A DNA stretch of 64,000 nt from Deltaproteobacteria bacterium RIFCSPHIGHO2_01_FULL_43_49 (GCA_001798075.1 MGRG01000012.1:91852-155851); one strand, 5' to 3'. Positions 29,514 through 61,568 are shown, numbered from the stretch's first letter. Numbers and translations are program-made. The notes: generated from the sequence alone by a model not told the origin.

Positions 29514-29544
29514 ATACCGCACGGTACCAGGTACCTGGCGGTAT
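29514..29544. repeat. REP-like palindrome (ATACCGCACGGTACCAGGTACCTGGCGGTAT)
   Basis: Near-perfect 31-bp palindrome abutting the RAYT stop codon. Confidence 0.8.
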
Positions 29545-30206
29545 TAGAGAACCACTTTTATTCGATTTGCAAGCCCATTTACTTGGTTCACCATCGCCGA
29601 AACCCGGCGTGATGTTGTCGCCTTAGATTCTTCCAAGAGGTTATGAGTTTTATCGGAAGGCAGCGGCGTCATAACAAGTTCTCTGTAAACTCTTTTACGT
29701 TTTTCATCATCGTTCACTAGGCCAAGGTAAGAAGGATGAAATTCTAATAATTCGTTTGGTGTGCCAAATGCATAGTAGGTATAACCACTCCATAACCAAT
29801 CTTCTGGTCTGATTACAAGTCCAGCAGATAGGGAGTTTCTATGCTGATAACGTAAACAAGCTAACGCATAGCGATCATTAGGAATGATATTGCTTCGATA
29901 TCGATGGGCCCAAAAGTGCCCGATTCTGTTATGCCGCTGATTAAAATCTTTAGCATATTTTAAACAAAGTTCCTGCATGATTTGGTCGATAAAATATCCC
30001 GTATGGGTGGAGAGGAGGAGATGGATATGCGAATGAAGCAGTTCATAATTATAAAGCCTGAATGCAAACTTCTCTTTAACCGCAGCTAACATTTCCAAGA
30101 ATATTTTGAAGTCTTCTTCTGTCTGAAGCAAATGCTCTTTGTTATTACATCGCAAAATGGTGTGATAATGAATGTCATCACCTTTGATTCGTGGCGCTCT
30201 AGGCAT
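29544..30206 (-). CDS. REP-associated tyrosine transposase (IS200/IS605 Y1 HUH family)
   Basis: HUH motif HSHIHLLL, conserved Tyr region (HFWAHRYRS), typical ~220-aa size. Confidence 0.85.
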   Translation of the reverse strand: MPRAPRIKGDDIHYHTILRCNNKEHLLQTEEDFKIFLEMLAAVKEKFAFRLYNYELLHSHIHLLLSTHTGYFIDQIMQELCLKYAKDFNQRHNRIGHFWAHRYRSNIIPNDRYALACLRYQHRNSLSAGLVIRPEDWLWSGYTYYAFGTPNELLEFHPSYLGLVNDDEKRKRVYRELVMTPLPSDKTHNLLEESKATTSRRVSAMVNQVNGLANRIKVVL

Positions 30207-30224
30207 GGCAAAACTCCTTTCCCA

Positions 30225-30283
30225 CTTACCGTGTGGTACCTGGTACCAGGCGGTACCGTGGGGTACCTGGTACCGAGTGGTAA
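30225..30283. repeat. REP-like palindrome doublet
   Basis: GTGGTACCTGGTACCAGGCGGTACC followed by GTGGGGTACCTGGTACCGAGTGGTA, directly upstream of the RAYT start. Confidence 0.8.
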
Positions 30284-30383
30284 TGCGAAAGGCGTGCCAA
30301 AATGAAAGGCTTTAGTTTTCAATAGGTTAGATTTTTTGGGGGTGCTGCAACTGACGAAATATGAACAGGTGCCGACGGATTTT

Positions 30384-30412
30384 TACCACCAGGTACCTGG
30401 TACCTGGTGGTA
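30384..30412. repeat. REP-like palindrome (TACCACCAGGTACCTGGTACCTGGTGGTA)
   Basis: Near-perfect palindrome sharing the GGTACC(W)GGTACC core. Confidence 0.8.
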
Positions 30413-30444
30413 TTTTTGGTGGTACTTTAAATTTCCTGATAAGT

Positions 30445-31234: not shown

Positions 31235-31335
31235 TCACTTCAAATCTTTAATCTTTAGCTGAATGGTTTTGATGTTGAGGTAGGTGTTCCATTGAGGGAC
31301 AAAGGCGATGTTGCCGCTACTTAGTGTTTACCGCC
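31235..31335 (-). pseudogene. duplicated 3' remnant of recJ (encodes ..GNIAFVPQWNTYLNIKTIQLKIKDLK*)
   Basis: Reverse-complement translation matches the true RecJ C-terminus (GGNVAFVPQWNTYQNQKTIQLKIKDLKRI*); about 80% nucleotide identity to 34118-34205 by eye. Confidence 0.7.
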
Positions 31336-31456
31336 AGATACCTAGTGGTACAGTGCACCAGATCCTGAATAGACACGTAGTGTCAACGCAATCGCCTGAG
31401 ATCGAATAGTTAATTATAACTTGACAGTATTTGAGGCCAAAATAGACTTGTGCTGT

Positions 31457-31849
31457 GTGAAAATTCTATTCGTTTGCGAATACAACGCTTGTCGGAGTCA
31501 GATAGCTGAGGGGCTGGCCCGTGCGCTCCTTCCGGAAAATTTTTCAATAACGAGTGCCGGTATTTATCCTGGTGAGTTGAATTGGGTCACCATTGAAGTA
31601 ATGAAGGAGATCGGGATCGACATCTCAACCCAGAGGTCCAAGTTGCTTGCAGAAGTATTGGACAGGCGTTTTGATCAAGTAATTGTCCTGGCAGAAGCGG
31701 CATGGAGGGCGGTCGAGATGTTAAAAACCGACCACAAATTGCTTTGGCCCTTTCCTGATCCAGCATGCGATCCCGGCGATGCCGAAGCGGTGAAAGGACG
31801 AATCCGCAGAGTTCGAGATCAGTTGAGAGAGAGGATTTTAACCCTATGA
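31457..31849 (+). CDS. low-molecular-weight phosphotyrosine phosphatase / arsenate reductase family protein
   Basis: CX5R P-loop VCEYNACRSQ near the N-terminus. Start taken at GTG 31457 (track start is TTG 31421). Stop overlaps the otsA start (ATGA). Confidence 0.7.
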   Translation: MKILFVCEYNACRSQIAEGLARALLPENFSITSAGIYPGELNWVTIEVMKEIGIDISTQRSKLLAEVLDRRFDQVIVLAEAAWRAVEMLKTDHKLLWPFPDPACDPGDAEAVKGRIRRVRDQLRERILTL

Positions 31850-34104
31850 AGTTTTCCCGTTTTGGGATTTTAGTCATCGGTTCTTTGCTGGTTGTTGTTG
31901 TCGGCATCTCTTTTATCCATTTTCAGCGAGAGCAGACCGCTCTTCGCGATGACCTCAACCGACGCGCCCGTGTGATCTCAAAAAGCCTCGCGCCGCCTGC
32001 AATCCGTATCTTGAAGAATCCCCCCGCCATTGACGAAGAAGACGTTGCGGAGCGGTTGGAGGGGCAGGGTCGTACTATCGGACTCATGATTTGCAACCTT
32101 GAGGGAAAACCGATCGCATTGTCGTCGACACTGACTGACACAGTAACCTGCAACGATGAGGTCATGGCCACGTTGGAAAGCGGAAAGGAATCTATTTTAC
32201 TGGATGAAATAGGGGGTCAGTCGCTCCACCGCCTGATTTTGCCATTGAAAGATCGCACCGGTTCTCTTCTTGGCACCCTTACCATCGTTCACGATTCCTC
32301 ATACATTACCAAACGGGTCACGTCCGCAGTCACCTGGATGACCCTCAGCCTCGCCATTTTGGCGATTGTCATTGCTCTTGGAACCTATCTTGCCTCTCGT
32401 CGCTCATTCCAAAGGTCGGTCACTCAGCTCCTCGACTGGATGAAATCATCGAAGAGTGCGGAAGACCTCCCTCCACCCACCGAATCTCTTTTGAGACCTG
32501 TCTCCAGGGAGGTTGAAAAGCTGACCGCGCGGCTACGGGCGGCCAAAGAGACAGCCAAAGAGGTTTCGGAGGCAAATCGTGTGAGTAATCTTTGGACTGG
32601 GGCACGACTCAAGGGTCACGCTACGTTTTCTATCGGAAATAAATCGCTGATCGTTGTTTCCAACCGGGAACCATACATGCATGTCAAGAAGGAGGGAAAA
32701 CAGCGAGTCATCATCCCTGCCAGCGGTCTTGTAACAGCCCTCGATCCCGTCCTTCGGGCGACGAGCGGTATCTGGATTGCCCACGGGTCAGGAGAAGAGG
32801 ACCGCGACTTTGTGAATAGTGAGGACAAGATTCTGGTACCGCCAGAGTCTCCGCTTTATACGCTTCGCCGGATCTGGCTCACGCGAGAAGAAGAAGAGCG
32901 ATACTATTATGGCTTCTCCAACGAGGCAGTCTGGCCCCTCTGCCATCTCACCCATCACCGTCCACATTTTGAGGAGAAGGACTGGCAGTCTTACATAAAG
33001 GTGAATGAGAAATTTGCCGACGCTGTCCTCCAAGAATGTGGCAAAGACCAACCGTTTGTCCTAGTTCAGGATTATCATTTTACCCTGCTCCCAAAGTTGA
33101 TTCGCGAGAGGCGGCCGGATGCCGTGGTTGGCCTTTTCTGGCACATTCCCTGGCCTACGCCTGAATCGTTTCAAATCTGTCCCTGGAAACGAGAGATATT
33201 GGAAGGGATGCTGGGAGCAAATTTTGTAGGTTTTCATCTGCAATCGTACTGCAACAACTTCCTGGACACTGTAAACAGCCTTCTCCCTGTGCGAATTGAT
33301 TGGGATCGACCTGGCATCCTTCACAATGAAGGCTTAACAACGGTCAAACCGTTTCCCATTGGCGTCCAGTTGTGGTCGGAGCGAGGAGTCGCTTCAGATG
33401 AGAGATTTCGGGAAAAAGCAAATATGTGGCGGAAGGAGTTGGAGTTAAATGCCAAGCGTCTGATCGTGAGCGTTGATCGGCTCGATTACACCAAGGGGAT
33501 TCCAGAGAGGATTGGTGCCATTGATCGGTTTTTGGAAAAGTATCCAGCCCATCGGGGAAAAGTTGTCTTTGTTCAACTTGCGGCCCCCAGCCGGGTTCAC
33601 ATCCCCCGTTACAGAGAATTTGTGACAGAGGTGGAGGGGCTTGTGGAACAAATCAATTGGAGACATGGGACAGAAGACTGGAAACCGATTCTTTTTCTCA
33701 AATCGCATCATGACCCCGAAACAGTTTATACCTTTCTGCGGATGGCCGATGTTTGCATCATTAGCTCTCTTTCAGACGGCATGAATCTTGTCGCCAAGGA
33801 ATTTGTCGCGGCGCGAGAAAAGGGAGATGGAGTGTTGATCCTTTCGGAATTTACCGGGGCCGCTCGGGAGTTTCAAGACGCGTTGCAGATCAATCCCTAT
33901 GCCCGTGCCGACTTTGCCGAGGTCATCAGGGTGGCCATTGAGATGCCGATGGAAGAGCAAAAAAAACGGATGAGCCGGATGAAAGCACAGGTCATAGAGC
34001 ACAATGTCTACGGATGGGCCGCGAATCTTATCACGGAAATGACTCAAACTGTAGAAGTCGGCATTTCATCCCGTCAAGATTTTCAAACAAGCAAGTACCT
34101 TTAA
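31846..34104 (+). CDS. otsA: trehalose-6-phosphate synthase (GT20) with ~265-aa N-terminal membrane-anchored extension
   Basis: GT20 catalytic region from about 32640 (LIVVSNREPY, FWHIPWPTPE, ANFVGFHLQSY); two predicted TM helices upstream (FGILVIGSLLVVVVGISFIHF; VTWMTLSLAILAIVIALGTYLA). Confidence 0.85.
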   Translation: MKFSRFGILVIGSLLVVVVGISFIHFQREQTALRDDLNRRARVISKSLAPPAIRILKNPPAIDEEDVAERLEGQGRTIGLMICNLEGKPIALSSTLTDTVTCNDEVMATLESGKESILLDEIGGQSLHRLILPLKDRTGSLLGTLTIVHDSSYITKRVTSAVTWMTLSLAILAIVIALGTYLASRRSFQRSVTQLLDWMKSSKSAEDLPPPTESLLRPVSREVEKLTARLRAAKETAKEVSEANRVSNLWTGARLKGHATFSIGNKSLIVVSNREPYMHVKKEGKQRVIIPASGLVTALDPVLRATSGIWIAHGSGEEDRDFVNSEDKILVPPESPLYTLRRIWLTREEEERYYYGFSNEAVWPLCHLTHHRPHFEEKDWQSYIKVNEKFADAVLQECGKDQPFVLVQDYHFTLLPKLIRERRPDAVVGLFWHIPWPTPESFQICPWKREILEGMLGANFVGFHLQSYCNNFLDTVNSLLPVRIDWDRPGILHNEGLTTVKPFPIGVQLWSERGVASDERFREKANMWRKELELNAKRLIVSVDRLDYTKGIPERIGAIDRFLEKYPAHRGKVVFVQLAAPSRVHIPRYREFVTEVEGLVEQINWRHGTEDWKPILFLKSHHDPETVYTFLRMADVCIISSLSDGMNLVAKEFVAAREKGDGVLILSEFTGAAREFQDALQINPYARADFAEVIRVAIEMPMEEQKKRMSRMKAQVIEHNVYGWAANLITEMTQTVEVGISSRQDFQTSKYL

Positions 34105-35807
34105 ATTCTTTTGAGGTCTTTTATCTTTAATTGGATTGTTTTTTGATTTTGGTAGGTGTTCCATTGGGGGACAAAGGCGACATTGCCCCCCTTAAGTGTC
34201 AACGGATGGTTGTTGCTCATATTAAACCCGATTGCTTCCAATGTGGTTTCCAAATCGGTCACTTTGAATTTCAAATGTTTTTCGCCCACGACACGCAAGT
34301 CATTAAATTTTAGATCGTTGCAGGCAAAAACCGGTTCTGGATTTTTGATTCCAAAAGGTTTGAGAGACCCCAATTCTTCAAGAAACTTTGCTTGAATGTC
34401 ATTTAATTTTAATTCGCAATCGATATTCAAGAAAGGCTTAAATGGTTCTTCCAAGACTTTTTGTTGGAGTGCCTTTTCGAAACGTTCTTCAAATTGGCTT
34501 AAATTTGTTAGCGAAACCGTAAGGCCGGCCGCTTGTTTGTGCCCACCAAATTGCTCTAGCAAATCGGAACAGGCCTCTAAAATTTCAACAATGTGTACTC
34601 CGGGAATGCTTCTTGCCGAACCTCTCGCAAAATCTTTTTCGATCGCCAAAGCAATAGAGGGGCGGTAATAATTTTCTGCGAGTTTGGAAGCGACCAATCC
34701 GACGATGCCCGGATGCCAATCTTTTGAAGAAACAACAAAACCGTTTTTTGCTAATTTATCTTCCGCCTGTCTAAAAGCTTCTCTCACATGTTTTTCCTGC
34801 ATCGCCTGTCTTTCTTGATTGCATTGGTCTAAAATCTTAGCAAGCTTACTAGCCCTTTCTAAATCGGCAGCACAAAGCAGATCCAAGCCCAGAGAGGCTT
34901 TGGCGATCCGACCACCGGCATTGATGCGGGGTGCTAATCGAAATCCAATATCGGATGGCTCCATGGTTTTACCGCCATCTAACTTACAGACTTCTTTCAG
35001 CGCGATGATGCCCATTTTTTTTGTGACTGCTAACTCTTTGAGCCCATAAGTCACCAAAATCCGGTTGATGCCGGTCAAGGGCGCTAAATCACCGACGGTT
35101 CCCAGTGCCACAAGATCTAAATGTTGCCTTAAGTTTGGCTCCCCATTTTTGAAGAGACCCTCCTCCCGCATTTTTTGACGTAGGGCTATGAGCAACATAA
35201 AAACAACACCGACACCGGCAAGCTCTCTGCCAGGTGTTCCTTCTTTCAACATCTGCGGATTGATGAAAGCAAAAGCAGGAGATTTCCTCGAATCCAATTC
35301 GTGATGATCGGTAACAATCACATCCAACCCATTTTTTTTAGCCCATTGAAGTGCATCCTGCGACTTTGTGCCGCAGTCGGCTGTAATAATGAGCGAAATC
35401 TTTTTGGCTTTCAGCTCCTCCAAGGCTTTGATATTGATTCCATAACCTTCTTGAATTCGGTCAGGGATATAAACAGTGAGGGGCAAGCTCAACTCAGTAA
35501 AAAATGTTTGAAGAAGTGCGGAAGAAGTAAGTCCATCGACATCATAGTCTCCATAAACAGCAATCGATTCTCGATTTTGGATGGCTTGAATCAAACGCCG
35601 GACAGCTTTTTCCATATCTGGAAAAAGAAAGGGGTTGGGCAAATCTTTTAAAGAAGGCTTCAAAAAAGCTTGTACCTTTTCTGGTTCGTCAATGCCACGA
35701 TTAATAAGGATTTGCGCAGTAACCCAAGAGATTCCCAGCGCTTCAGCTAAACGCTTCTGGAGTGATGGGTTAGGGGACGAAATCCTCCAGGTTTTTTGCA
35801 GGGGCAT
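34101..35807 (-). CDS. recJ: single-stranded-DNA-specific exonuclease RecJ
   Basis: DHH-family motifs (VYGDYDVDGLTS, DHHE) and RecJ-like overall sequence. Confidence 0.9.
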   Translation of the reverse strand: MPLQKTWRISSPNPSLQKRLAEALGISWVTAQILINRGIDEPEKVQAFLKPSLKDLPNPFLFPDMEKAVRRLIQAIQNRESIAVYGDYDVDGLTSSALLQTFFTELSLPLTVYIPDRIQEGYGINIKALEELKAKKISLIITADCGTKSQDALQWAKKNGLDVIVTDHHELDSRKSPAFAFINPQMLKEGTPGRELAGVGVVFMLLIALRQKMREEGLFKNGEPNLRQHLDLVALGTVGDLAPLTGINRILVTYGLKELAVTKKMGIIALKEVCKLDGGKTMEPSDIGFRLAPRINAGGRIAKASLGLDLLCAADLERASKLAKILDQCNQERQAMQEKHVREAFRQAEDKLAKNGFVVSSKDWHPGIVGLVASKLAENYYRPSIALAIEKDFARGSARSIPGVHIVEILEACSDLLEQFGGHKQAAGLTVSLTNLSQFEERFEKALQQKVLEEPFKPFLNIDCELKLNDIQAKFLEELGSLKPFGIKNPEPVFACNDLKFNDLRVVGEKHLKFKVTDLETTLEAIGFNMSNNHPLTLKGGNVAFVPQWNTYQNQKTIQLKIKDLKRI

Positions 35808-41065: not shown

Positions 41066-42160
41066 CTAATATAATTTTCGCAAAGTGGCTTTGGGATAGT
41101 AGTGTTCCAAAATAGTTTTGTAATCGGCTCCTTGGTCGGCCATGCCTTTTGCCCCCCACTGGCAAAGCCCTACGCCATGGCCATAACCGGTTCCTTTGAA
41201 AACGACATGACGGTTGTTCAATTCCACATCAAACCAAGTACTTTTTAAATTTTTAAAACCCAAAGTATTTCGCAAGTCGGTTGCTTTCAAATAAAGGTTG
41301 TTTTCGTCTGTTTCGATAATGATCATGGCATTTCGGGGGGAGTCATCAAAGCGCTCCAACTGGATTGAAACAATTTTTGAACCGGTCAACCCCCTGTTTT
41401 TCAGTGCGTTAAGAAGTTGGTGGTGAGAAAGGGTTAATTCCCAATCTTGATGCGGCGAATCTTTGCAATAATGATCAATAATGCTGCTGGATATTTCCTT
41501 TTTGCCCCACACTCTGGGTGCTACCTCTGTTTGTCCACCACAAGTGCTGTGAAAATAGGCAGGAAACATTCCAAGATACCAGAGGACTTCACCTCTTGTG
41601 GCATCCACCGCCTCTTTGACAATATTATCTTGAGTTGTTCCCAATGATCCTTTGTAGACTTGATCGGCGGTATCAGATTCCAAATCATAACTCCCGCTTT
41701 GACGGCGTTGCTTTTGTCTAAAAAGGGCATAAGTTCTGGCTGCCACCACTTGAGCCTTAATCGCTTCCTCAGGCCAGCTAGAAAAAATTTCACCATGCAC
41801 GAGCCCTACCAAATAGTCCTCCAGAGGCAACTCATTGAGGACGAGCAATTGATTATTCGAATCTTTTTTGATTTCTAACCAACCTTTAAATTGTTTCCCT
41901 TGAATTTCGACCGCTTCCGTTCGGCTGCCGATTTTGATCACAGGATAGGAAAAAGTTTGGCTTCCAACTTTGAACCCATTTTCCGTGGAGGTAACCAGGG
42001 CAGGGCTGTCGATAAAATGACTAATGGGACGCGGTTCATTCCCTAATAGCCACAAATTTTCACCCTCAACAGTCAATTTTGGAAGGTCCTTGAAAATAGC
42101 AACCCGAACGGAAGGGATAACAAGCAGAGAACACAAAATCAGACTCTTCAATCTTTGCAT
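41066..42160 (-). CDS. SpoIID/LytB-domain protein
   Basis: Signal peptide; SpoIID-like region (VVAARTYALFRQ, YFHSTCGGQTE). Confidence 0.8.
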   Translation of the reverse strand: MQRLKSLILCSLLVIPSVRVAIFKDLPKLTVEGENLWLLGNEPRPISHFIDSPALVTSTENGFKVGSQTFSYPVIKIGSRTEAVEIQGKQFKGWLEIKKDSNNQLLVLNELPLEDYLVGLVHGEIFSSWPEEAIKAQVVAARTYALFRQKQRRQSGSYDLESDTADQVYKGSLGTTQDNIVKEAVDATRGEVLWYLGMFPAYFHSTCGGQTEVAPRVWGKKEISSSIIDHYCKDSPHQDWELTLSHHQLLNALKNRGLTGSKIVSIQLERFDDSPRNAMIIIETDENNLYLKATDLRNTLGFKNLKSTWFDVELNNRHVVFKGTGYGHGVGLCQWGAKGMADQGADYKTILEHYYPKATLRKLY

Positions 42161-42211
42161 GTCGGTTCTCTAACATAACTACTTGAATTGACAAAGAATT
42201 TATTCTTGCTG

Positions 42212-42300
42212 CTTGGTGAGTGGGTGGCCCGGAGTGTTTGTTGTGGGGTTTAGTTAGGGGCCCCCACAAAAACACGGAGGGACAGGCCCTACTCACCAAG
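42212..42300 (+). repeat. palindromic structured element, copy 1
   Basis: Conserved core TGGGTGGCCCGGAGTGTTTG.TGTGGGGTTTAGTTAGGGGCCCCCACA.AAACACGGAGGG.CAGG shared with 60460-60546; outer stem CTTGGTGAGT / ACTCACCAAG is complementary. Confidence 0.65.
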
Positions 42301-42305
42301 CCAAG

Positions 42306-42335
42306 GAAGCAACATTTTTGGGGATTTGCCGATAA
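42306..42335 (+). promoter_or_regulatory. conserved 30-bp box (GAAGCAACATTTTTGGGGATTTGCCGATAA), candidate ECF-type promoter or operator
   Basis: 27 of 30 positions identical to 46416-46445; AAC at the -35-like position and CGA about 17 nt downstream. Confidence 0.35.
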
Positions 42336-42430
42336 GTATAGTGTGGCCGACGACCACTGAGACTCTAATTAGAATTGACACTCTGTGTCGGCACCCTTAA
42401 AATTCGATGCAAAAGAGGAATCATTCCAAA

Positions 42431-43951
42431 ATGTTACGACTCTCCATACCGGTCAAGGTCCTTTTGGCCGCAGGCTTTGGTTATGTTGCCATTCTTTTCG
42501 CGACCACCTGGGCCACTTTGGTTTACTCTCTCGACACTCAGGACCTCTGGCTGGGAATAAAAATTGAACATTGGTTTCTGATCGGAGAAATTTTCTTCGT
42601 CGTTTTAGTGGCCACCATTACCTCCTATTTTTTACTGGATCGTCCCTTGAACAAGTTGACCGAGATCATGAACAAGGCCGGAGAGGGAGATTTCTTAATC
42701 CGTGCTCCCAACAATCGCTCGGACGAAATCGGCATGTTGGCAGACAATTTTAATAAGATGCTAGCAAGAGTCACCGATCTCTCCGCCAACAAAATCCAGA
42801 CCGATCACGATTTGATCATTGTTCAAGAAGAGTTGAAGTACAAAAAGAGTTTAGAGGAGAAGACAAAACTTATTGAAAGGGCAAATCACACTCTCGAAAA
42901 TCTTGTCAAAGATTTATCCCTTCTTTACGAAATTGGGCAGAGTATTAACCAAACAATCGATCTAGAACAACTCTATCAAGTCATTGGAGATGTTTTGAAA
43001 CGCAATTTAAGGTTGAAAAATTTTTCTTTGATGGTTTGGAACGACAAACATCAAGTTTTAACCGTCAAAACGGTCTTCGGTTTTGAAAAAGACTCCAAAG
43101 TAAAACAGATGACATTCCAAGCAGGAGAGGGAATTGCCGGAGAAGTTTTGAAAACGGGAAAAACGATTTATGTTGGCGATGTAAAAAAGGAAACGCGCCT
43201 TGTTGAAAGGGGTCTTGAGTTATTGGGCTCCATATTGTCCGTGCCGTTAACCTATAAGGGTGAGACACTGGGTGTTATTAATTTTGGCAGAGACAAGACC
43301 TATTCTTTCACCAATCATGATGTGAAAATGCTGACCTTGGTTGCCAATCAGGTTGCCCTCGCGATGGCGAATGCCAGACTCTACACGCAAACCAGAGAAC
43401 TTTCCGTGACCGACGAACTGACCGGTGTTTTCAATCGCAGACACTTTGCGCAAGTTTTACAATTGGAGTGGAAAAGGGCAGTCCGTTTTAAACGAGAACT
43501 TTCTTTGCTTATGATCGATGTCGACTATTTCAAACGCTACAATGATACCTATGGGCATTTGAAAGGAGACGAGGCCTTAAAAGAAATTGGAAAGATACTG
43601 ATTGCCAATTTGCGTGAGGTTGATACCGTCGCCCGCTTTGGTGGGGAAGAATTTATTGTGCTCCTGCCCGATACCGATAAGCGTGGCGCTCAAGCGGTGG
43701 CTGAAAAATTAAGACATCTTGTTCAAGAAAAAATCGAAGCGATCACGATTAGTGTGGGAGTGGCAACGTATCCCGATGATGTGACCGAGATGGATGACTT
43801 GATTGACCATGCCGATATCGCTCTTTATAACGCCAAAGACAAAGGCCGCAACCGGGTGTTGACCTACACGGGCGGTAAACCCCCAGAATCTTTAAATCCC
43901 CCCTCCGAAGAAAAACAAGATTCCAACATCAAACCAAGGTTAGTGCATTAA
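42431..43951 (+). CDS. diguanylate cyclase with TM, HAMP and GAF regions
   Basis: GGEEF active-site motif (RFGGEEFIVLLPDTD); HAMP-like LNKLTEIMNKAGEGDFLIRAP; two N-terminal TM helices. ATG 42407 is an alternative start. Confidence 0.85.
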   Translation: MLRLSIPVKVLLAAGFGYVAILFATTWATLVYSLDTQDLWLGIKIEHWFLIGEIFFVVLVATITSYFLLDRPLNKLTEIMNKAGEGDFLIRAPNNRSDEIGMLADNFNKMLARVTDLSANKIQTDHDLIIVQEELKYKKSLEEKTKLIERANHTLENLVKDLSLLYEIGQSINQTIDLEQLYQVIGDVLKRNLRLKNFSLMVWNDKHQVLTVKTVFGFEKDSKVKQMTFQAGEGIAGEVLKTGKTIYVGDVKKETRLVERGLELLGSILSVPLTYKGETLGVINFGRDKTYSFTNHDVKMLTLVANQVALAMANARLYTQTRELSVTDELTGVFNRRHFAQVLQLEWKRAVRFKRELSLLMIDVDYFKRYNDTYGHLKGDEALKEIGKILIANLREVDTVARFGGEEFIVLLPDTDKRGAQAVAEKLRHLVQEKIEAITISVGVATYPDDVTEMDDLIDHADIALYNAKDKGRNRVLTYTGGKPPESLNPPSEEKQDSNIKPRLVH

Positions 43952-46243: not shown

Positions 46244-46415
46244 TTCAAAGAGGGCAAATCACAATAACTTATGAAAAGCCATGAAATTTTAAAATACATC
46301 GGATTTGGAACATAATGCTTTAAAACTTAGACATTCCGAACTGGTTTTGAATAAATTCTATTTATTTTTCAATGAGTTACCAATAAAATTTCTGGCCCAT
46401 TTTTTGTATGCTTTT

Positions 46416-46445
46416 GAAGCAACTTTTTTGAGGATTTGCCGAAAA
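46416..46445 (+). promoter_or_regulatory. conserved 30-bp box copy 2 (GAAGCAACTTTTTTGAGGATTTGCCGAAAA), candidate promoter of the four-gene operon
   Basis: 27 of 30 identical to 42306-42335; ends about 20 nt before the operon start codon, followed by RBS AGGAGAGG. Confidence 0.35.
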
Positions 46446-46465
46446 CAATTAGGAGAGGTTTTTTA

Positions 46466-48046
46466 ATGGCTGAGAAGTGTCAATTAATTAGTAAATTATC
46501 AGTGTCACCCTCCATACTGCTCGGTAGTTTTCTTTATGATATCAGCAAGTTAGGTGGAAATCCTGGGGAGCTAGACACCTGTGACCTAAAGGTTTTCCAA
46601 AAGGAATTGGGTATTTCTTTGCCCCAAAAAGCATTTCTCGACAAATTTGGAAAAGGGGATTCGTTTAAACTCATTGAAGCCTCTGAATTTCTTTATAATC
46701 AGTATTTATATGCCCCCAACAATAAATATTATGCGTTTTACCCCAAATATTTCAGCAATCAGACCCATGCGGATCTCGCAGAAGTGGCTCTTCGTGACCT
46801 AAAAACGACCCTGGAACCTATCGTCGAAGTAGGAGTCCTCAAAAAAATTCCTATCTACGAGCGCATCTTGAAAGAACCGGCCCTGGCAGAATGGCTTTCT
46901 GTTGATGAAAAAGAAAAAATTGGAGCAGACATTGCAAAAATTCGTGAACTTTTTGAAGAAAAGAACTGGAAAGACCTCTACCCCCGCATGGACACTTTTG
47001 AAGTATCTCTCCCTGATTTGTACGAGACGATTAGCCAACGAGCTCAGGATAACGTTAAATTTTGGGAAAGGGCTGTTGTTGCAACGGAAGTTGTTCACAA
47101 TGTGTTATTTATCGGGGCCGGTGTTGCAGTGGGAATCGTTGCTGGCCCTGTGGCAGCTGTTGGTGCGACACTGGCATTCGGTTTATCTTCCCTCGCCTCC
47201 GAAGAAACTGCCAAAGCTATTTCACAAGATGACTATACATGGCAAAATGCTTTGAAATCTTTTGGCTATCACGCACCGTTTGATATTATCAAAAGTGCCG
47301 CTTTCCTATTTCCGCCACTCAAGGCTGCAACCATCTTTGTGGGAGCCACTTTTGTGGAAGTTGCGGCAGACCCATTTGGAGAACCGAAACCTGTTGTTGA
47401 CCGTTTGATTGATGGAGGTTTTTCAGCTCTGGTTGCAGCGGCCACTTTTTTCGTTGGGAAAAAAGCCGGCGAAAAACTGGGGCCTTATTTTGCAAAATAT
47501 TTTAGAAGAGCCATCCAGCCAGTTCCGGAGTCACCTCAACTTGTCAGACCAACAGTTGTTGAAACTCGAACGGCTACTTCTCCCTCGCCACCTGTTGAAC
47601 CGCCTCCTCCAAAAATGGAAGTGGAGCCTGCACCGCCACCCCCCACCCCCAAACCAAAAAGGGTCGAAGCCAGACCCAAAAATGGTGGCCCTAATGGAGC
47701 ATCGCATTCAGAGAAGGTCTTGCACACCATCAAGAAAACACGATTTGCAGAAGATTGTTTTGAAAAGCTCACACCGTTGGTTAAAGGAAAAATGGAGGAG
47801 TTTGTTGCAACACTCGTTAATAAATTAAATTTCGGAGTTCCTATTGCAAAAATTGCTAATGTCATGCGGAACAAGGATTTCGCCGGTGTTTGGGAAGGAC
47901 GTTTCATGTCTGCTAGCAATGCGAGAGTCTATTTTAAAATCACCGATGATCCCAATGGTTCCAAAATAGTTGAGATTCTCGGTTATTCTTTAGGAGAAGC
48001 CGATCGCATTGCTATTTTACAGCATTTTGCTGGTGGGAGGCATTAA
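46466..48046 (+). CDS. operon gene 1: membrane-type protein with Gly/Ala-rich hydrophobic segments, Pro-rich linker and RelE/ParE-like C-terminal domain
   Basis: ATG 46466 with AGGAGAGG RBS; hydrophobic segments (VLFIGAGVAVGIVAGPVAAVGATLAFGL; FSALVAAATFFVG); linker SPSPPVEPPPPKMEVEPAPPPPTPKPK; C-terminus AGVWEGRFMSASNARVYFKITDDPNGSKIVEILGYS resembles the RelE/ParE toxin pattern. Confidence 0.6.
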   Translation: MAEKCQLISKLSVSPSILLGSFLYDISKLGGNPGELDTCDLKVFQKELGISLPQKAFLDKFGKGDSFKLIEASEFLYNQYLYAPNNKYYAFYPKYFSNQTHADLAEVALRDLKTTLEPIVEVGVLKKIPIYERILKEPALAEWLSVDEKEKIGADIAKIRELFEEKNWKDLYPRMDTFEVSLPDLYETISQRAQDNVKFWERAVVATEVVHNVLFIGAGVAVGIVAGPVAAVGATLAFGLSSLASEETAKAISQDDYTWQNALKSFGYHAPFDIIKSAAFLFPPLKAATIFVGATFVEVAADPFGEPKPVVDRLIDGGFSALVAAATFFVGKKAGEKLGPYFAKYFRRAIQPVPESPQLVRPTVVETRTATSPSPPVEPPPPKMEVEPAPPPPTPKPKRVEARPKNGGPNGASHSEKVLHTIKKTRFAEDCFEKLTPLVKGKMEEFVATLVNKLNFGVPIAKIANVMRNKDFAGVWEGRFMSASNARVYFKITDDPNGSKIVEILGYSLGEADRIAILQHFAGGRH

Positions 48047-50418
48047 TGACCACTATTAATTTTGGCTTTATTGAAGCAGCCATCACTGCAGCCCAGGCAG
48101 CCCAAGCGGCTTCTAATAGGGCTGAATTAGATGCCGCATTGGAAAAATTGGGGAGGGCGATCCATCCCCTGGATACCTTTGCTGATGGCAATCTATCCCC
48201 CTTGGTGGAAAGGCTGACGAGTGGTAGAAGAGCTGTCACTGAAGCAGAACTGAATCAAGTTATCAGGACTATCAACGATGCCGGGGATAAATACCGGGCA
48301 AGTTCAGGCACAAAGGAATCAAAAGCCAGCAGTGCGCACACAGGGCACGGTGTTCATGGAAGCCCCAATCCTTATCTTATTCAAGTAGGTCAGTCTAAAA
48401 CTTTTTCCCCGCGCCCTAACCAAGCCTACATCGCACGGAAAGCAGTGAGCCATTTTAGAGAAGAACACAGAGGTTTTTTTCGCCTCGATACAGGTGAGGG
48501 TAAAACACCAACATACGGATTCATCATTCAAGAACTTCGCAAAGAACTTCCCGATGAATACCAAGAGGCACTTGTTGTCATGGGTTGCCATCAAGCAGAA
48601 CCCGCTCGCAAATTGGCAGAGACGATGAAACATATGTTTCGTGATGAAAAAATCATGTTTTTAGAGGGAGGTATTGAAGCAGAAGATTTTAAAAGAGTTA
48701 CTTTTGTGGTGGGGACCTATCAACAACTAGCACAAAAATCGAGTATTGACGTTTTGAAAGAATGGGCTGGTCAAAAAAGAATTCTTTTTGTCTTGGATGA
48801 AGCGGACATGGTTGTTTTCAAAGGTATTGCAGAAGATGAACATCGAATGGCTACTTGGATTCGTCTCTTGATCGACTTTGGAGTCTTTACACAACATGGG
48901 CATTATCTTGCCAGAACACGGCATCGACTGTTGGGGGCCTCTGCAACCCTTGATCGCCCTGATGAAATTTCTCTCTCAACTGTTTGGGGTCCTGGAAATG
49001 TTTTCTATCATACACCGATGGCAGAGGGGGTTCGGCGCGGCACTCTTGTGCCCGTGGTTGGTCATGTCTTAGAAATGGATGTTCCAGAAAAAGAAAAACA
49101 TCTCTTCAGGGATTTTACGAAGATTGTGGATGGTAAGATTGTGGTTGATAAAACAAAAGTGATGTCTGCCTGCGGCAGTGATCATGCTGTTAAAACATCG
49201 GTTCGAGCTGTGATCGATCATATGAAGATGAAGATTGGTGCTGGAACGACAAAGGGTGAAGCAGTGCGGCGTGGGATCGGTTATGCCATGGACACCACTG
49301 CCTTGGAAAAACACATGCGCTGGCAGCAAGAATTATTTGGGTTGGTAGAGGTTATTTTCCAAATTTATCAAGGCTTGGCTGCATCAAAACCAATGCATGT
49401 TGATACAATCCTCGCTCATCTTGGTGGTCTGGAGAAACTAGATGCGTTTGGTCAAACTTTAAAACGGTTTCTCTATGCTAGAGAATGGAAAACGGTGGAA
49501 TCCCTTTACAGAAAGGCGGTCAGTTCTTTAAAAAATGGGAGAAAAGAAGGTATTTCGGAATTGTTCACTACTCTCTATTCTATTTTGAATGTTGATGTTC
49601 GCAGAATCAAAGGAAGACCTTTGGTGGCCACGGCTGTCTGGCAAAGTATGGACATGGATCGTGAAGGCAAAAAAATTCCTCGTGAGGCTCGTCGCACTCA
49701 ATATCTCAACAAATTTGGTGATCGGGAACTAACGATGAAGGGCTTCAATGCTGGGGTGATCGACATGCTCTGGAGCATTGGGATGTTGGACAGAGGTTTC
49801 GACGAACCGATGGCAAGCTTAATTGTTGATAATGCCCCTAGTTCATCGAGAAGAGAAGTGGTGCAAAGGGCAGGCCGTATCATGCGACCACCCGACCCCA
49901 AAAATCCTAAAGATCATAGTCAAAAACCAGAATCTATTTATATTACACTGACACCCAATTTGGAAGCCCACCATCTCGATGTGGCCAGAAAAGATTTAGC
50001 CCGAGTTTTTGGTACCGAAGTAGATCCTGAGCTCAATATCATTAAGATTCGCCCTACCAAAGAAGGGGATTTTGAGTGGCGTACTCCCGATCCTGTTCAA
50101 CTTGATTTGGGAGGTGATAAAAAAGTCCATTTAGTGTTGGTTGGGGCTAGAACCGTGGAGGCATTGGTTCATTTTTTAAAAGGACGTTATGGGAAAGATT
50201 ATGATCCCGAAATTTTGGCCTTCGATGCCGGTGTTGGGGTTGAAGAAGTTGATGATTTATTGCGGGCCATTCGTTTTCCCAAGGAATCCAGATTACGTGC
50301 CTTTTTAAAAAATTGGCGTGCCGATGATGCAACAATCCACCAAATCATGGCAATCTATCACTCCGATCTTGCCGACATGAAAACGGTCTATGGTAACGCC
50401 TGGAGGATTGTGCAATGA
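48046..50418 (+). CDS. operon gene 2: SF2 helicase / ResIII-type ATPase
   Basis: Motif I LDTGEGKT (about 48490), motif II LDEADM (about 48796), motif III SAT (about 48934), motif VI QRAGRIMRP (about 49861). Start overlaps the gene 1 stop by 1 nt. Confidence 0.75.
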   Translation: MTTINFGFIEAAITAAQAAQAASNRAELDAALEKLGRAIHPLDTFADGNLSPLVERLTSGRRAVTEAELNQVIRTINDAGDKYRASSGTKESKASSAHTGHGVHGSPNPYLIQVGQSKTFSPRPNQAYIARKAVSHFREEHRGFFRLDTGEGKTPTYGFIIQELRKELPDEYQEALVVMGCHQAEPARKLAETMKHMFRDEKIMFLEGGIEAEDFKRVTFVVGTYQQLAQKSSIDVLKEWAGQKRILFVLDEADMVVFKGIAEDEHRMATWIRLLIDFGVFTQHGHYLARTRHRLLGASATLDRPDEISLSTVWGPGNVFYHTPMAEGVRRGTLVPVVGHVLEMDVPEKEKHLFRDFTKIVDGKIVVDKTKVMSACGSDHAVKTSVRAVIDHMKMKIGAGTTKGEAVRRGIGYAMDTTALEKHMRWQQELFGLVEVIFQIYQGLAASKPMHVDTILAHLGGLEKLDAFGQTLKRFLYAREWKTVESLYRKAVSSLKNGRKEGISELFTTLYSILNVDVRRIKGRPLVATAVWQSMDMDREGKKIPREARRTQYLNKFGDRELTMKGFNAGVIDMLWSIGMLDRGFDEPMASLIVDNAPSSSRREVVQRAGRIMRPPDPKNPKDHSQKPESIYITLTPNLEAHHLDVARKDLARVFGTEVDPELNIIKIRPTKEGDFEWRTPDPVQLDLGGDKKVHLVLVGARTVEALVHFLKGRYGKDYDPEILAFDAGVGVEEVDDLLRAIRFPKESRLRAFLKNWRADDATIHQIMAIYHSDLADMKTVYGNAWRIVQ

Positions 50419-51725
50419 GTGTAAGTGTTGTCACTCCTGCAGGATATGTTACCGGCCTACTTGGTAATCTGGAGACCCTAAGTGTTGCCGGTCAAGAATC
50501 AGACATTGCAGAGGTCTTAAACGATTTATTTCCTCAAGTAGATCGTCTTGGTAATGCTGAACTTGGACAGCGTTTAAAAAAAGTAGCAACCGCGTTGCAA
50601 AATGGTGATTATAAAAGAACTCAATGGTTACAATCTTCATTATATCGTGAACTCACTGATCTTCAAGCAGCACTCCAAAGTGGTCAAGCTATTGAAGAGG
50701 CATTGCAAGCAAGACAAGCTGCTCAAGCGTTAAAAAAAATAGAAGGACCAGGCGGCGGGCGATTTACCTCTTCCATTACTGCAAGACCAGTTCAAAGAGT
50801 TTCTGTTGGACCACCACCAGTCATTGAATGGGAGAAGTTTGGATCTAGAAGGTATCCTGCACCGCTCCCCCCAAGTGAAGAGGTGAATACAGCGGGCAGA
50901 CGATTGGCTTATGTTGTCAGTTACGTTGCCGGAATGGCAGGTCATGGGGAATTCACGGCTGATACAGAAGATTTTTATAGCATCAGTTCTGAGATGCGCA
51001 GACGTATCGAAAAAGCGTTATTCGTTCCCAAAGCATTGGGCCAGTTTCCAACACGGGATGCAAGATCGATTATTATCAAAGCCCATCAATTAGAGCCGCT
51101 TTATGGAAGATTAGTTCAAGAACTTCTGATCCAATCTATTTTTGAATCACAGGGTTGGTCGTTGGGCGTTCCACTCTCCGATGCCCCGTGGGATCTCTCT
51201 TTTTTGTATGCCTTGAGACGCTATGGTGCGATGCAGTTGTTGGCCTCCGAAGAGAAAGCAAAAGAAGTGTCGGAAGACAAAGCGCTCATTCGCGTTGTGC
51301 AAGGCAAAGTCAGTTTGGAAGCGGTGAACTGGCATCCAGGCAAAACCCGTCGCGAAGTTTTTGAGCCTTGGTTACAAGGGATAGCCAGCAGAAATGGTAA
51401 CAATGAAAAACTTTTAGAGAGACAACGCAAATATATTGGCGATGGAATTTTGCGTGCAACAAATTGGCAGCCTCCTCGCAATGGCGCTGGTTGGGAGCCG
51501 CAACTCCAATGGATGGTCAGGCGCTGGATTGCCCATTTTCATTTTGGTGCTTTGCCGGCCCGGGGACTTCCATTTAAAACCGATGTGATCATTCGTTTTG
51601 CAATGGCGAAACACCCAACAAAACTAGATTTAACTTTTGCGAGAGCTTTGTTGGCCATGATGCGTGATTATTATTCAAAGGCAGAATTACAAGCCATGGG
51701 GGATTTTATACCGAGGGATAAATGA
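50415..51725 (+). CDS. operon gene 3: hypothetical protein (436 aa)
   Basis: 4-nt overlap (ATGA) with the helicase stop; no recognisable motif. Confidence 0.6.
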   Translation: MSVSVVTPAGYVTGLLGNLETLSVAGQESDIAEVLNDLFPQVDRLGNAELGQRLKKVATALQNGDYKRTQWLQSSLYRELTDLQAALQSGQAIEEALQARQAAQALKKIEGPGGGRFTSSITARPVQRVSVGPPPVIEWEKFGSRRYPAPLPPSEEVNTAGRRLAYVVSYVAGMAGHGEFTADTEDFYSISSEMRRRIEKALFVPKALGQFPTRDARSIIIKAHQLEPLYGRLVQELLIQSIFESQGWSLGVPLSDAPWDLSFLYALRRYGAMQLLASEEKAKEVSEDKALIRVVQGKVSLEAVNWHPGKTRREVFEPWLQGIASRNGNNEKLLERQRKYIGDGILRATNWQPPRNGAGWEPQLQWMVRRWIAHFHFGALPARGLPFKTDVIIRFAMAKHPTKLDLTFARALLAMMRDYYSKAELQAMGDFIPRDK

Positions 51726-60305: not shown

Positions 60306-60322
60306 TTATTTACCTCCGTTTT

Positions 60323-60411
60323 GTTGAAAATGACGGGCTCCGGGTCGGCTTGCTGCACGCCCTCCCGACAGATCGGGCTGACAGCTGCGCCGACCACCCG
60401 TCATTTTCAAC
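60323..60411. repeat. GC-rich palindromic element in the rsmD leader region
   Basis: Perfect 14-bp inverted repeat GTTGAAAATGACGG / CCGTCATTTTCAAC separated by a GC-rich 61 bp with internal complementarity; lies 18 nt upstream of the rsmD start, adjacent to its GGAGG RBS. Confidence 0.55.
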
Positions 60412-60459
60412 TTCACATTTTTCGGAGCACCTATGCGAAAACACCCTATCTTAATGATT

Positions 60460-60546
60460 GGAGTGAATGGGTGGCCCGGAGTGTTTGCTGTGGGGTTTAG
60501 TTAGGGGCCCCCACAGAAACACGGAGGGGCAGGACCCGTTCACTCC
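60460..60546 (+). repeat. palindromic structured element, copy 2
   Basis: Same core as 42212-42300 with a different but still complementary outer stem (GGAGTGAA / TTCACTCC). Confidence 0.65.
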
Positions 60547-60651
60547 ACTCAATATTATTAAGGTGTTTTCGCAAAGGTCGGAGAAGTCTATGCATAGAAC
60601 TTGCATTAATTCAAAAGACAAGCTATGGCGAGCGAATAATAAGGAGGATTC

Positions 60652-61470: not shown

Positions 61471-61483
61471 GCGAAAAAAATAG

Positions 61484-61505
61484 CGGGTCCTGCCCCTCCG
61501 TGTTT
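61484..61505 (-). repeat. inverted partial copy of the palindromic element core
   Basis: CGGGTCCTGCCCCTCCGTGTTT is the reverse complement of the 3' part of copy 2 (AAACACGGAGGGGCAGGACCCG) and is followed by a T-run, just after the SHOCT gene stop. Confidence 0.6.
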
Positions 61506-61568
61506 TTTTGTTCAGAAGCAACTTTTTTGGCGCCCCGCCGAAGAACCCATCAGAAAGGTCTTATTTCC

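What the first reader, a model, noticed from the sequence alone, without database searches (positions are those of the whole stretch)
42212..42300. Palindromic ~88-bp element with compensatory stem changes between two copies, suggesting a structured RNA
The two copies share a near-identical ~65-bp core, but their outer stems differ and stay complementary: copy 1 GTGAGTGGG / CCCTACTCAC, copy 2 GTGAATGGG / CCCGTTCAC. That is one compensatory G:C to A:U change plus G-U and U-G wobbles valid only in the plus-strand RNA. Both copies sit in divergent intergenic regions 105-190 nt upstream of plus-strand genes (the GGDEF gene and the SHOCT gene). Covariation argues for selection on RNA secondary structure, not a plain DNA repeat.
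Basis: seen in the sequence. Interest (0 to 1): 0.65.

Follow-up and report, generated by a model that had tools for sequence, protein, structure and literature searches.

The report
Dispersed nested hairpin DNA repeat family
The two 81-bp hairpin copies are real and their stems do co-vary, but they belong to a family of dozens of palindromic repeats scattered through this uncultured bacterium's genome (even inside a gene), so they look like REP/MITE-type selfish DNA and not a dedicated regulatory RNA.

Summary
Two copies (42216-42296 and 60463-60543) are 90% identical and fold into long hairpins with compensated stem differences.

The RNA-leader reading is not supported. The same about 68-nt core ("K") occurs in about 53 distinct copies in 389 kb of DNA from the same species (Deltaproteobacteria bacterium RIFCSPLOWO2_01_44_7). 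These copies:
- lie in both orientations relative to genes;
- often abut stop codons;
- include one fixed in-frame copy inside a YgfZ/GcvT-like gene;
- include half copies, one at window 61473-61509.

A relative with the same gene order has short, element-free spacers at both window sites and no K in 57 kb. At copy 1, a near-consensus promoter that partly recurs in the relative lies between K and the GGDEF gene.

K has an almost invariant apex (loop, bulged G, GGA/GGA internal loop). Its basal stems differ between copies but stay paired (96.9% of cells). It is nested inside other recurrent palindromic modules in a fixed order (D>B>C>X>K).

Best reading: a lineage-specific, REP/REPIN/MITE-like hairpin repeat, probably mobilised in trans as single-stranded DNA. 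Copies after stop codons probably also act as terminators. No Rfam match, no target-site duplication and no transposase were found. The inverted conservation pattern and the nesting are unusual. Interest is moderate.

The parts
42211..42301 (+). K copy 1, whole hairpin. The shared 81 nt are 42216-42296. Layout: copy-specific basal stem GCTTGGTGAGTGGG / CCCTACTCACCAAGC; TGG 42225-42227; CCC 42228-42230; GGA internal loop 42231-42233; inner stem 42234-42248 with a bulged G; apical loop TTTAGTTAGGGGC 42249-42261; return arm 42262-42275; GGA 42276-42278; GGG 42279-42281; ACAGG 42282-42286.
   Evidence: structure spans 42211-42301; CM 104.7 bits; pair counts
60463..60543 (+). K copy 2, the shared 81-nt core. 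It has a fully paired B/X-like basal stem TTGGAGTGAATGGG / CCCGTTCACTCCA at 60458-60548.
   Evidence: (CM 112.7 bits)
60421..60586 (+). Composite D(B(K)) hairpin around copy 2. D-left is TTCGGAGCACCTATGCGAAAACACC and D-right is GGTGTTTTCGCAAAGGTCGGAGAAG. The same 165-nt composite recurs at about 80% identity in L026, L045, L047 and L048.
60321..60412 (.). Neighbouring palindromic module C (GTTGAAAATGACGGG ... CCCGTCATTTTCAAC). It carries a different 65-nt cargo, K2. The same cargo occurs in L019 and L030, in the opposite orientation to the window copy.
61473..61509 (-). Half copy of K. Only the 3' arm is present, with an A-tract/T-tract basal arm (…AAACACGGAGGGGCAGGACCCGCTATTTTTTT on the - strand). 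It starts 2 nt after the SHOCT stop codon.
   Evidence: (nhmmer 23.8 bits, model positions 62-98)
42375..42403 (+). Context: sigma-70-like promoter TTGACA-17-TAAAAT between K copy 1 and the GGDEF gene. The TTGACACTCTGTGTCG part is shared with the syntenic relative.

Best explanation
The element is one member of a lineage-specific family of dispersed, hairpin-forming DNA repeats. In kind it resembles REP/REPIN, BIME, MITE and Rickettsia palindromic elements.

Shown:
- An almost invariant core of about 68 nt (GGG-TGG-CCC-GGA-GTGTTTGYYGTGGGG-TTTAGTTAGGGGC-CCCCACRRAAACAC-GGA-GGG-ACAGGA-CCC) sits at the apex.
- A basal stem of about 12-24 bp differs between copies but stays paired.
- This unit is often nested inside further recurrent palindromic modules, in the fixed order D>B>C>X>K.
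- The family has spread through intergenic DNA, and once into a coding gene, in this species.
- The two window insertion sites are empty in a syntenic relative.

Inferred:
- Copies are made by a trans-acting enzyme that recognises the conserved asymmetric features of one strand folded as single-stranded DNA. These features are the apical loop, the bulged G, and the GGA/GGA and TGG/ACAGGA internal loops.
- The rest only has to pair. Pairing is kept by selection for mobilisation competence, by template-switch correction between the arms of quasipalindromes, or by both.
- Where a copy lies right after a stop codon with A-tract and T-tract arms (20 of 52 classified copies), it probably also works as a bidirectional intrinsic terminator or a 3'-end stabiliser.
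- The two window copies lie between divergent genes. Copy 1 lies upstream of the predicted GGDEF promoter. Both are most likely passengers with little or no regulatory role.
For: 1. Copy number and spread. The 20-mer of the apical loop hits 42 metagenome loci. Those loci belong to the same species as the window. The covariance model R1 finds about 53 distinct full copies in 389 kb.
2. Copies lie in both orientations relative to genes and in all spacer types.
3. In about 23 copies one end of the element lies within about 11 nt of a stop codon (17 on the antisense side, 6 on the sense side).
4. There is an in-frame copy inside the YgfZ/GcvT-like gene. It adds 21 aa relative to 11 homologues, and all cluster members carry it.
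5. Half copies exist: window 61473-61509, L018 3046-3106 and L032 7451-7511.
6. The sites are empty in the syntenic relative GCA_030648035.1, and that relative has no K copy in 57 kb.
7. Nesting is modular, with alternative cargo (K2) in the same C arms.
8. The hairpin is maintained: 96.9% of cells are paired and 132 cells have changes on both sides. A diverged copy (L033 6583) has three to four inner pairs replaced, with the bulged G kept.
9. There is no Rfam family in the window or in 98 kb of loci.
10. Literature: REPIN hairpins show compensatory changes (PMC3116915). Rickettsia palindromic elements insert in frame, and the pneumococcal BOX, RUP and SPRITE repeats insert into one another (PMC10969869).
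Against: - No mobilising enzyme was identified. Only about 10% of a genome was searched, so this is a weak negative.
- No target-site duplication was found. Two-nt flank identity occurs in 5 of 53 copies, which is chance level.
- No presence/absence polymorphism within the species was found. Mobility is therefore inferred from distribution and from a relative that is only 61% identical in SpoIID.
- The conservation pattern (invariant apex, variable base) is the reverse of REPINs and of MITE terminal inverted repeats.
- The core is about 95-100% identical between copies, including unpaired positions, while adjacent spacers in old composites have diverged by an estimated 30% or more (read by eye). 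That implies strong selection on the core, which could reflect a host function and not only mobility.
- The modest + strand bias in wobble pairs is compatible with an RNA role.
Confidence: 0.68

Rival explanations
1. K is a functional structured RNA motif: a cis-regulatory leader, an attenuator or a multi-copy sRNA module. Its stems are kept by selection on RNA folding.
For: - Covariation is strong.
- Unpaired purine-rich loops are invariant.
- G:U cells outnumber A:C cells (27 against 12), and the + strand is the more stable one.
- Both window copies lie upstream of + strand genes.
Against: - Orientation relative to transcription is mixed. Among copies next to stop codons the mRNA would mostly carry the - strand (17 against 6).
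- Downstream genes are unrelated to each other.
- There is an in-frame copy in a coding gene.
- Half copies exist.
- The orthologous spacers in a relative lack the element.
- At copy 1 the predicted promoter, part of which recurs in the relative, lies downstream of K.
- There is no Rfam match.
Confidence: 0.08
2. K-bearing hairpins are primarily host terminators or mRNA 3'-end stabilisers: a family of unusually large bidirectional intrinsic terminators. They would have spread by duplication or gene conversion, and dedicated mobility would not be the main driver.
For: - 20 of 52 classified copies have an A-tract before the hairpin and a T-tract after it.
- In about 23 copies one end of the element lies within about 11 nt of a stop codon.
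- In L018, copies occupy successive spacers of a same-strand gene string.
- The genome's ordinary short terminator-like hairpins (for example CAAAAGGTAG-cgt-CTACCTTTTG) resemble the T-type arms.
Against: - The two window copies and 10 others lie in divergent spacers, where no terminator is needed.
- B-, X- and other-type arms lack T-tracts.
- One copy is inside an ORF that must be read through.
- Convergent spacers are under-represented, with 4 copies.
- A terminator does not need a 13-nt invariant loop or invariant internal loops.
Confidence: 0.14
3. K is a small element that specifically invades the apical loop of existing hairpins (terminators and other palindromic repeats). The variable, complementary 'outer stem' of each copy would then simply be the stem of the invaded hairpin.
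For: - K is flanked directly by arms of several unrelated palindrome families (B, C, X, T and unique ones), always at a GGG|CCC junction.
- The same C arms carry either K or K2.
- Empty short-loop hairpins ending in GGG/CCC exist, for example ATAGATTCCCACGGG-tttg-CCCGTGGGAATCTAT.
- The net insertion in the YgfZ-like gene is about 21 aa, or 63 nt. This is close to the core alone and not to core plus arms.
- There is no target-site duplication.
Against: - Most 'unique' arms still follow one pattern (A-tract, then about 5 variable bp, then YGGG). They therefore look like diverged versions of one arm family and not like unrelated targets.
- The nesting order is fixed, which random loop invasion would not produce.
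- A pre-existing 17-bp palindrome inside a coding region is unlikely.
- No empty B or D hairpin was seen.
Confidence: 0.1

Closest known systems
REP / REPIN elements mobilised by RAYT (TnpA_REP) transposases, and their mosaic arrangements (BIMEs) in Enterobacteria and Pseudomonas
   Same: - Dozens of copies per genome, almost all extragenic and often just after stop codons.
- They form hairpins about 80-100 nt long in single-stranded DNA or mRNA.
- Compensatory changes keep the hairpin (PMC3116915).
- Singlet or half copies occur as decay products.
- They cluster and form mosaics with other palindromic modules.
- A GTAG tetranucleotide is present in the T-type arms (AAAAAGTAGYGGG).
   Different: - The conservation pattern is inverted. 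REPINs have conserved ends and a variable spacer at the apex. K has an invariant apex and variable basal arms.
- No RAYT was found in the held DNA.
- There is no sequence similarity.
- K tolerates a position inside a coding gene.
Rickettsia palindromic elements (RPEs)
   Same: Palindromic repeats of about 100-150 bp that can sit in frame inside conserved protein-coding genes without destroying them (PMC10969869). One reading frame of the K sense strand is open (GGPECLLWGLVRGPHKNTEGQD). It is translated inside the YgfZ-like protein.
   Different: Only 1 of about 53 K copies is intragenic, whereas RPEs were found 44 times in genes of R. conorii. The lineage is unrelated and there is no sequence similarity.
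Bacterial MITEs and modular repeats that insert into one another (pneumococcal BOX, RUP, SPRITE; Neisseria Correia; ERIC)
   Same: - Short, non-coding and multi-copy.
- Fold into stable hairpins.
- Found bunched together and nested.
- Some carry terminator-like features (SPRITE).
   Different: MITEs are defined by conserved terminal inverted repeats and target-site duplications matching a parent IS. Here the termini vary, no duplication is seen, and no parent IS is known.
Rho-independent (bidirectional) terminators
   Same: In T/C-type copies an A-tract, a G+C-rich hairpin and a T-tract lie immediately after stop codons.
   Different: The hairpin is about 45 bp long with conserved internal loops and a 13-nt loop. 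Many copies lack T-tracts or lie where no terminator is needed.

Membership tests
REP/REPIN-RAYT | High-copy, mainly extragenic palindromic repeats within one genome | tested here: met
   About 53 distinct copies in 389 kb of the same species. All but one are intergenic.
REP/REPIN-RAYT | Two inverted, highly conserved REP ends flanking a less conserved spacer | tested here: not met
   The invariant columns are in the apical core, and the basal arms are the variable part.
REP/REPIN-RAYT | A cognate RAYT (Y1 HUH transposase) gene, usually flanked by REPs | tested here: inconclusive
The held DNA is only a fraction of the genome, and the query is distant from RAYTs.
REP/REPIN-RAYT | Conserved GTAG tetranucleotide next to the palindrome | tested here: inconclusive
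   GTAG is present in T-type arms (for example c13, c14, c26, c30, c31). It is absent from B, X and many other arms.
MITE | Conserved terminal inverted repeats shared by all copies | tested here: not met
   The termini fall into at least four arm classes plus unique ones.
MITE | Target-site duplication flanking each copy | tested here: not met
   Direct flank identity is at chance level: 2 nt in 5 of 53 copies and 3 nt in 3 of 53. The palindrome boundaries were set heuristically.
Cis-regulatory structured RNA (leader or riboswitch-like) | Fixed orientation and position in the 5' UTR of a coherent set of genes | tested here: not met
   Both orientations and all spacer types occur, and many copies lie at 3' ends. 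At copy 1 a promoter is predicted downstream of K.
Cis-regulatory structured RNA (leader or riboswitch-like) | Conservation at orthologous loci in related species | tested here: not met
   The syntenic relative has spacers of 101 nt and 67 nt without K.
Cis-regulatory structured RNA (leader or riboswitch-like) | Covariation supporting a defined secondary structure | tested here: met
   This feature is shared with mobile single-stranded-DNA hairpins, so it does not discriminate.
Any Rfam family | Score at or above the gathering threshold | tested here: not met
   No hits in the window or in 98 kb of loci. Only chance miRNA-hairpin matches at E of 4-5.
Integron attC sites | Arrays of same-orientation sites separating short cassettes, with R''/R' boxes (RYYYAAC/GTTRRRY) | tested here: not met
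   Orientation and spacing are mixed, and the flanking genes are housekeeping genes. Only the C arms vaguely resemble GTTRRRY.
Intrinsic terminator | G+C-rich hairpin followed directly by a T-tract at a gene's 3' end | tested here: inconclusive
   True of the A-tract/T-tract class (20 of 52) and of many copies next to stop codons. Not true of the two window copies. The simple terminator scan found none at either window copy. Function was not tested.

The most novel reading that the evidence does not exclude
K is the active module of a previously undescribed kind of hairpin element. Its recognition determinants would sit at the apex of the hairpin, and it would propagate by entering or rebuilding the tips of other hairpins. 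That would produce nested composites of 200-280 nt (D(B(C(X(K))))). It would need no RAYT/IS200-type enzyme and would leave no target-site duplication. Alternatively, the invariant purine-rich internal loops and the 13-nt loop are a binding site for a host protein, used genome-wide on one strand.
Probability: 0.18. Interest if true: 0.7.

Novelty: new variant of a known kind. Interest (0 to 1): 0.38.

Why it matters
As a case of the general class (REP, MITE, RPE) the finding is ordinary. It shows that stem covariation between two copies cannot by itself be read as an RNA gene.

The family is still worth a note for three reasons.
- It comes from an uncultured deltaproteobacterial lineage with no described repeats.
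- It reverses the usual conservation pattern: the apex is invariant and the ends vary. That raises the question of what recognises it and how new complementary arms arise.
- It builds strictly ordered nested hairpins with a second 165-nt repeat (E) alongside.

It also breaks short-read assemblies. The Logan contigs L003-L005 start 146 nt upstream of the GGDEF gene, inside the copy 1 hairpin. It creates chimeric protein calls such as P0238. Both points are relevant to MAG quality for this group.

Tried and rejected
- Rfam at gathering threshold on the window and on 11 loci, and at E <= 10 on 42100-42450. Nothing but chance miRNA-hairpin matches.
- A genome-contig scan with the loop 20-mer gave 0 hits.
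- Two viral-contig scans gave 0 hits.
- The search for related loci with SpoIID in genome contigs found only relatives of <= 46% identity. These were useless for empty-site comparison.
- blastn of the window against the loci found no orthologous overlap, only the 165-nt composite.
- An all-against-all comparison of the loci looking for insertion polymorphisms found only 100%-identical overlaps.
- PDB alignment of the YgfZ-like protein to locate the insertion was ambiguous. It was resolved with close homologues.
- Cluster members of that protein were checked for an empty allele. All carry the insert.
- The target-site-duplication test was negative.
- The IS200-type transposase search was negative but weak.
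- Integron attC, CRISPR repeat, retron msr/msd and group II intron readings were rejected on arrangement and on the lack of Rfam hits.
- A sigma-70 scan at copy 2 found no promoter. The TTGCAT-17-TATGGC candidate downstream of the composite is my own reading only.
- The E module was checked for promoters. None was found, and it is itself a hairpin of about 190 nt.

Full report
**1. The observation**

The repeat finder returns one two-copy family at 42216-42296 and 60463-60543. Both copies are on the + strand, 81 nt long and 90% identical.

Each copy with 10-nt flanks folds into one long hairpin:
- + strand: -53.0 and -58.5 kcal/mol, z = -4.5 and -7.0, with no shuffle of 200 as stable.
- - strand: almost as stable, at -50.3 and -53.3 kcal/mol.

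Besides the compensated G:C to A:T change in the outer stem, the two copies carry a second compensated change in the inner stem. This is T42241:A42269 against C60488:G60516. In both copies the palindrome continues past the shared 81 nt with copy-specific sequence.

Copy 2 is embedded in a much longer palindrome, 60421-60586. A separate hairpin lies just upstream at 60321-60412.

**2. It is a large family**

Rfam has no match in the window at gathering thresholds. At E <= 10 around copy 1 there are only chance miRNA-hairpin matches.

The window comes from Deltaproteobacteria bacterium RIFCSPLOWO2_01_44_7, a Rifle groundwater MAG (GCA_001798515.1). The 20-nt apical-loop sequence GGGGTTTAGTTAGGGGCCCC behaves as follows:
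- It is absent from 185,579 representative genomes and from viral contigs.
- It occurs in 42 JGI metagenome loci, giving 44 distinct copies.
- Those loci belong to the same species as the window. A protein encoded on one of them carries NCBI accessions of this very MAG.

A covariance model built from 40 copies (A1, R1) finds about 53 distinct full copies in 389 kb of held DNA. Only two of these are in the window. nhmmer additionally detects a half copy at window 61473-61509 on the - strand. It starts 2 nt after the SHOCT stop codon and has only the 3' arm.

**3. Anatomy**

The alignment shows an almost invariant core:

GGG-TGG-CCC-GGA-GTGTTTGYYGTGGGG-TTTAGTTAGGGGC-CCCCACRRAAACAC-GGA-GGG-ACAGGA-CCC.

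The unpaired features do not vary. They are the 13-nt loop, a bulged G in the inner stem, a symmetric GGA/GGA internal loop and an asymmetric TGG/ACAGGA loop.

Two adjacent inner pairs switch between T:A and C:G in a coordinated way (UA 27/CG 10 and UA 30/CG 8, with 2-3 exceptions each).

The basal stem differs almost completely between copies, yet it stays paired. Examples are AAAAGTTAAGAGGGG/CCCCTCTTAACTTTT, AATTTTTAGATGATGGG/CCCGTCATCTAAAAATT and GTTAAGTGGCGGG/CCCGCCACTTAAC.

On a 29-pair structure:
- 96.9% of cells are standard pairs, against 43-57% when the 3' partners are slid by 1-3 columns.
- 132 cells have changes on both sides, against 38 +/- 6.5 in shuffles.
- 10 pairs show double changes.

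The basal stem beyond the core is typically 12-24 bp, with a median of about 14. Covariation is therefore real and strong.

**4. RNA or single-stranded DNA?**

G:U cells outnumber A:C cells by 27 to 12 in the RNAalifold table. The + strand fold is the more stable one in 44 of 53 copies with RNA parameters and 52 of 53 with DNA parameters. Much of that asymmetry sits in the shared core, so the copies are not independent observations. G:T wobble also stabilises DNA hairpins, so the question stays open on this evidence.

Compensatory changes in hairpin arms are documented for REPINs, which are mobile DNA (PMC3116915). From general knowledge, template switching in quasipalindromes can copy a change from one arm to the other with no selection on RNA.

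**5. Context argues against a dedicated regulatory RNA**

With a simple ORF-based gene model (approximate), copies are intergenic but in every arrangement:
- between co-directional genes: 20 antisense and 12 sense;
- in divergent spacers: 12;
- in convergent spacers: 4.

In about 23 copies one end of the element lies within about 11 nt of a stop codon. In 17 of these the mRNA would carry the - strand, and in 6 the + strand.

In L018 successive spacers of a same-strand gene string each hold a copy.

One copy (L033 6577-6680) lies inside a YgfZ/GcvT-like gene, in frame. It reads GLGDPQCWPWGFVRGPHGNTEGQDP. The protein is 340 aa, against 296-322 aa for its 55-62%-identical homologues. The alignment places a net +21 aa exactly there. 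All members of its 90% cluster carry the insert, including the NCBI proteins of this MAG. Even this copy has its own 17-bp basal stem, GGAGAGAAAGGGTTGGG/CCCGACTCTTTCTCTCC. It also has three to four inner pairs replaced while keeping the bulged G.

**6. The two window sites are empty in a relative**

MAG GCA_030648035.1 (SpoIID 61% identical) keeps the local gene order: GGDEF-SpoIID-QueA-Tgt-YajC-SecDF-RecJ, and SHOCT next to the methyltransferase. The spacers compare as follows:

| Spacer | Relative | Window |
|---|---|---|
| GGDEF-SpoIID | 101 nt | 246 nt |
| Methyltransferase-SHOCT | 67 nt | 346 nt |

R1 finds no copy in 57 kb of that genome.

The relative and the window share a TTGACACTCTGTGTCG motif upstream of the GGDEF gene. 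In the window it is the -35 part of an 11-of-12 sigma-70 match, TTGACA-17-TAAAAT, at 42375-42403. This lies downstream of K. If that promoter is used, K copy 1 is not in the GGDEF leader.

At copy 2 the scan finds no promoter. A TTGCAT-17-TATGGC candidate downstream of the composite is my reading only.

**7. Nesting**

The arms next to K fall into recurrent classes:
- A-tract/T-tract arms (GGTGAAAAAGTAGYGGG...CCYRCTACTTTTTCACC, with the related C arms GTTGAAAATGACGGG...CCCGTCATTTTCAAC): 20 copies.
- B arms (TTGGAGCGAAGGGG...CCCCGAAGCTCCAA, with a GAA/GAA internal loop): 10 copies.
- X arms (GGTGGAGTGGTGGG...CCCGCCACTCCA): 7 copies.
- Others: 15 copies.

Modules are nested in a fixed order, D>B>C>X>K. 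The resulting hairpins are 200-280 nt long, with MFE of -95 to -139 kcal/mol. Window copy 2 is a D(B-like(K)) composite. It recurs at about 80% identity in four other loci.

The C arms can carry a different 65-nt cargo, K2. It is found at window 60335-60399, in L019 and in L030.

A 165-nt repeat, E, has 10 copies at 93-99% identity and is itself a hairpin of about 190 nt. It sits just 5' of the D/B hairpin in 8 loci.

This mosaic of palindromic modules resembles BIMEs and the pneumococcal BOX/RUP/SPRITE clusters, which insert into one another (PMC10969869).

**8. What was not found**

- No target-site duplication. Flank identity is at chance level.
- No transposase.
- No within-species presence/absence polymorphism.

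Empty short-loop hairpins ending in GGG/CCC, and terminator-like hairpins such as CAAAAGGTAG-cgt-CTACCTTTTG, do exist in the genome. The idea that K enters existing hairpin tips therefore stays open. Against it, most 'unique' arms follow one pattern (A-tract, about 5 variable bp, YGGG), and the nesting order is fixed.

**9. Verdict**

The claim of structural constraint is right. The inference 'structured regulatory RNA, not a DNA repeat' is not supported.

The best-supported reading (about 0.68) is a lineage-specific family of dispersed hairpin repeats of the REP/REPIN/MITE/RPE kind. The family is probably copied as single-stranded DNA by an unidentified trans-acting enzyme that reads the invariant apex. 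Copies behind stop codons probably double as bidirectional terminators or 3' stabilisers. The two window copies lie between divergent genes, copy 1 upstream of the predicted GGDEF promoter, and are most likely passengers.

It is not a member of any named family:
- The REPIN conservation pattern is reversed.
- The MITE criteria (conserved terminal inverted repeats, target-site duplication) are not met.
- Rfam has nothing.

I rate it a new variant of a known kind, of moderate interest. The inverted conservation pattern, the ordered nesting and the source of new complementary arms are the parts worth following.

Noticed in passing
window 60321-60412: A separate perfect-armed palindrome (C arms GTTGAAAATGACGGG/CCCGTCATTTTCAAC) carries a 65-nt cargo 'K2'. 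K2 is unrelated in detail to K but also starts with GGGTGG and ends with CCC. The same cargo is found in L019 and L030, in the opposite orientation to the window copy.
   Followed up: partly
window 61473-61509 (-): A half copy of K (3' arm only, with an A-tract/T-tract basal arm) starts 2 nt after the SHOCT stop codon. It lies in the 98-nt spacer before the M20 peptidase gene.
   Followed up: yes
L022 4874-5038; also L047 (two copies), L010, L019, L045, L021, L043, L013, L028: A 165-nt repeat 'E' has 10 copies at 93-99% identity and folds into a hairpin of about 190 nt. In 8 loci it lies about 220 nt 5' of the D/B/K hairpin. It has no Rfam match and no promoter match. It is absent from the window.
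   Followed up: partly
window 29495-30432 (also L021 10667-10705): A cluster of four GTACC-rich palindromes (for example TTACCGTGTGGTACCTGGTACCAGGCGGTA) with long inverted arms 710-840 nt apart. This is a different repeat family. One 18-bp-stem copy occurs elsewhere in the genome.
   Followed up: no
window 42375-42390 and L129 9917-9932: TTGACACTCTGTGTCG (with the internal palindrome GACAC-N3-GTGTC) is shared upstream of the GGDEF gene in two species whose SpoIID proteins are 61% identical. It overlaps the -35 of the predicted promoter and may be an operator.
   Followed up: partly
window about 46400-57100 (L001 14013-21545, L006 1-6494): A four-gene + strand cluster: a 526-aa protein without Pfam hits, a 790-aa ResIII/DEAD helicase, a 436-aa protein and an 1807-aa protein, both without Pfam hits. 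It is followed by a HepT/MNT toxin-antitoxin pair. The layout resembles a defence island between the two K copies.
   Followed up: no
P0121 residues 73-81 (L033 about 6400-6430): The K-bearing YgfZ-like protein also has a 9-aa insertion (PPLQPGGRS) that is absent from all 11 aligned homologues. Its origin is unknown.
   Followed up: no
L003-L005 (Logan contigs) and P0238: Short-read assemblies break inside the K hairpin: the contigs start 146 nt upstream of the GGDEF gene, inside copy 1. One ENA contig jumps from the YgfZ copy into another K copy, producing a chimeric 178-aa protein call.
   Followed up: partly
window 7405-9105 and 31245-34199: Two further direct-repeat families: three 78-nt copies at 64-77% identity spaced 677 and 946 nt apart, and two 83-nt copies at 77% identity 2872 nt apart. 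They may be paralogous gene segments.
   Followed up: no
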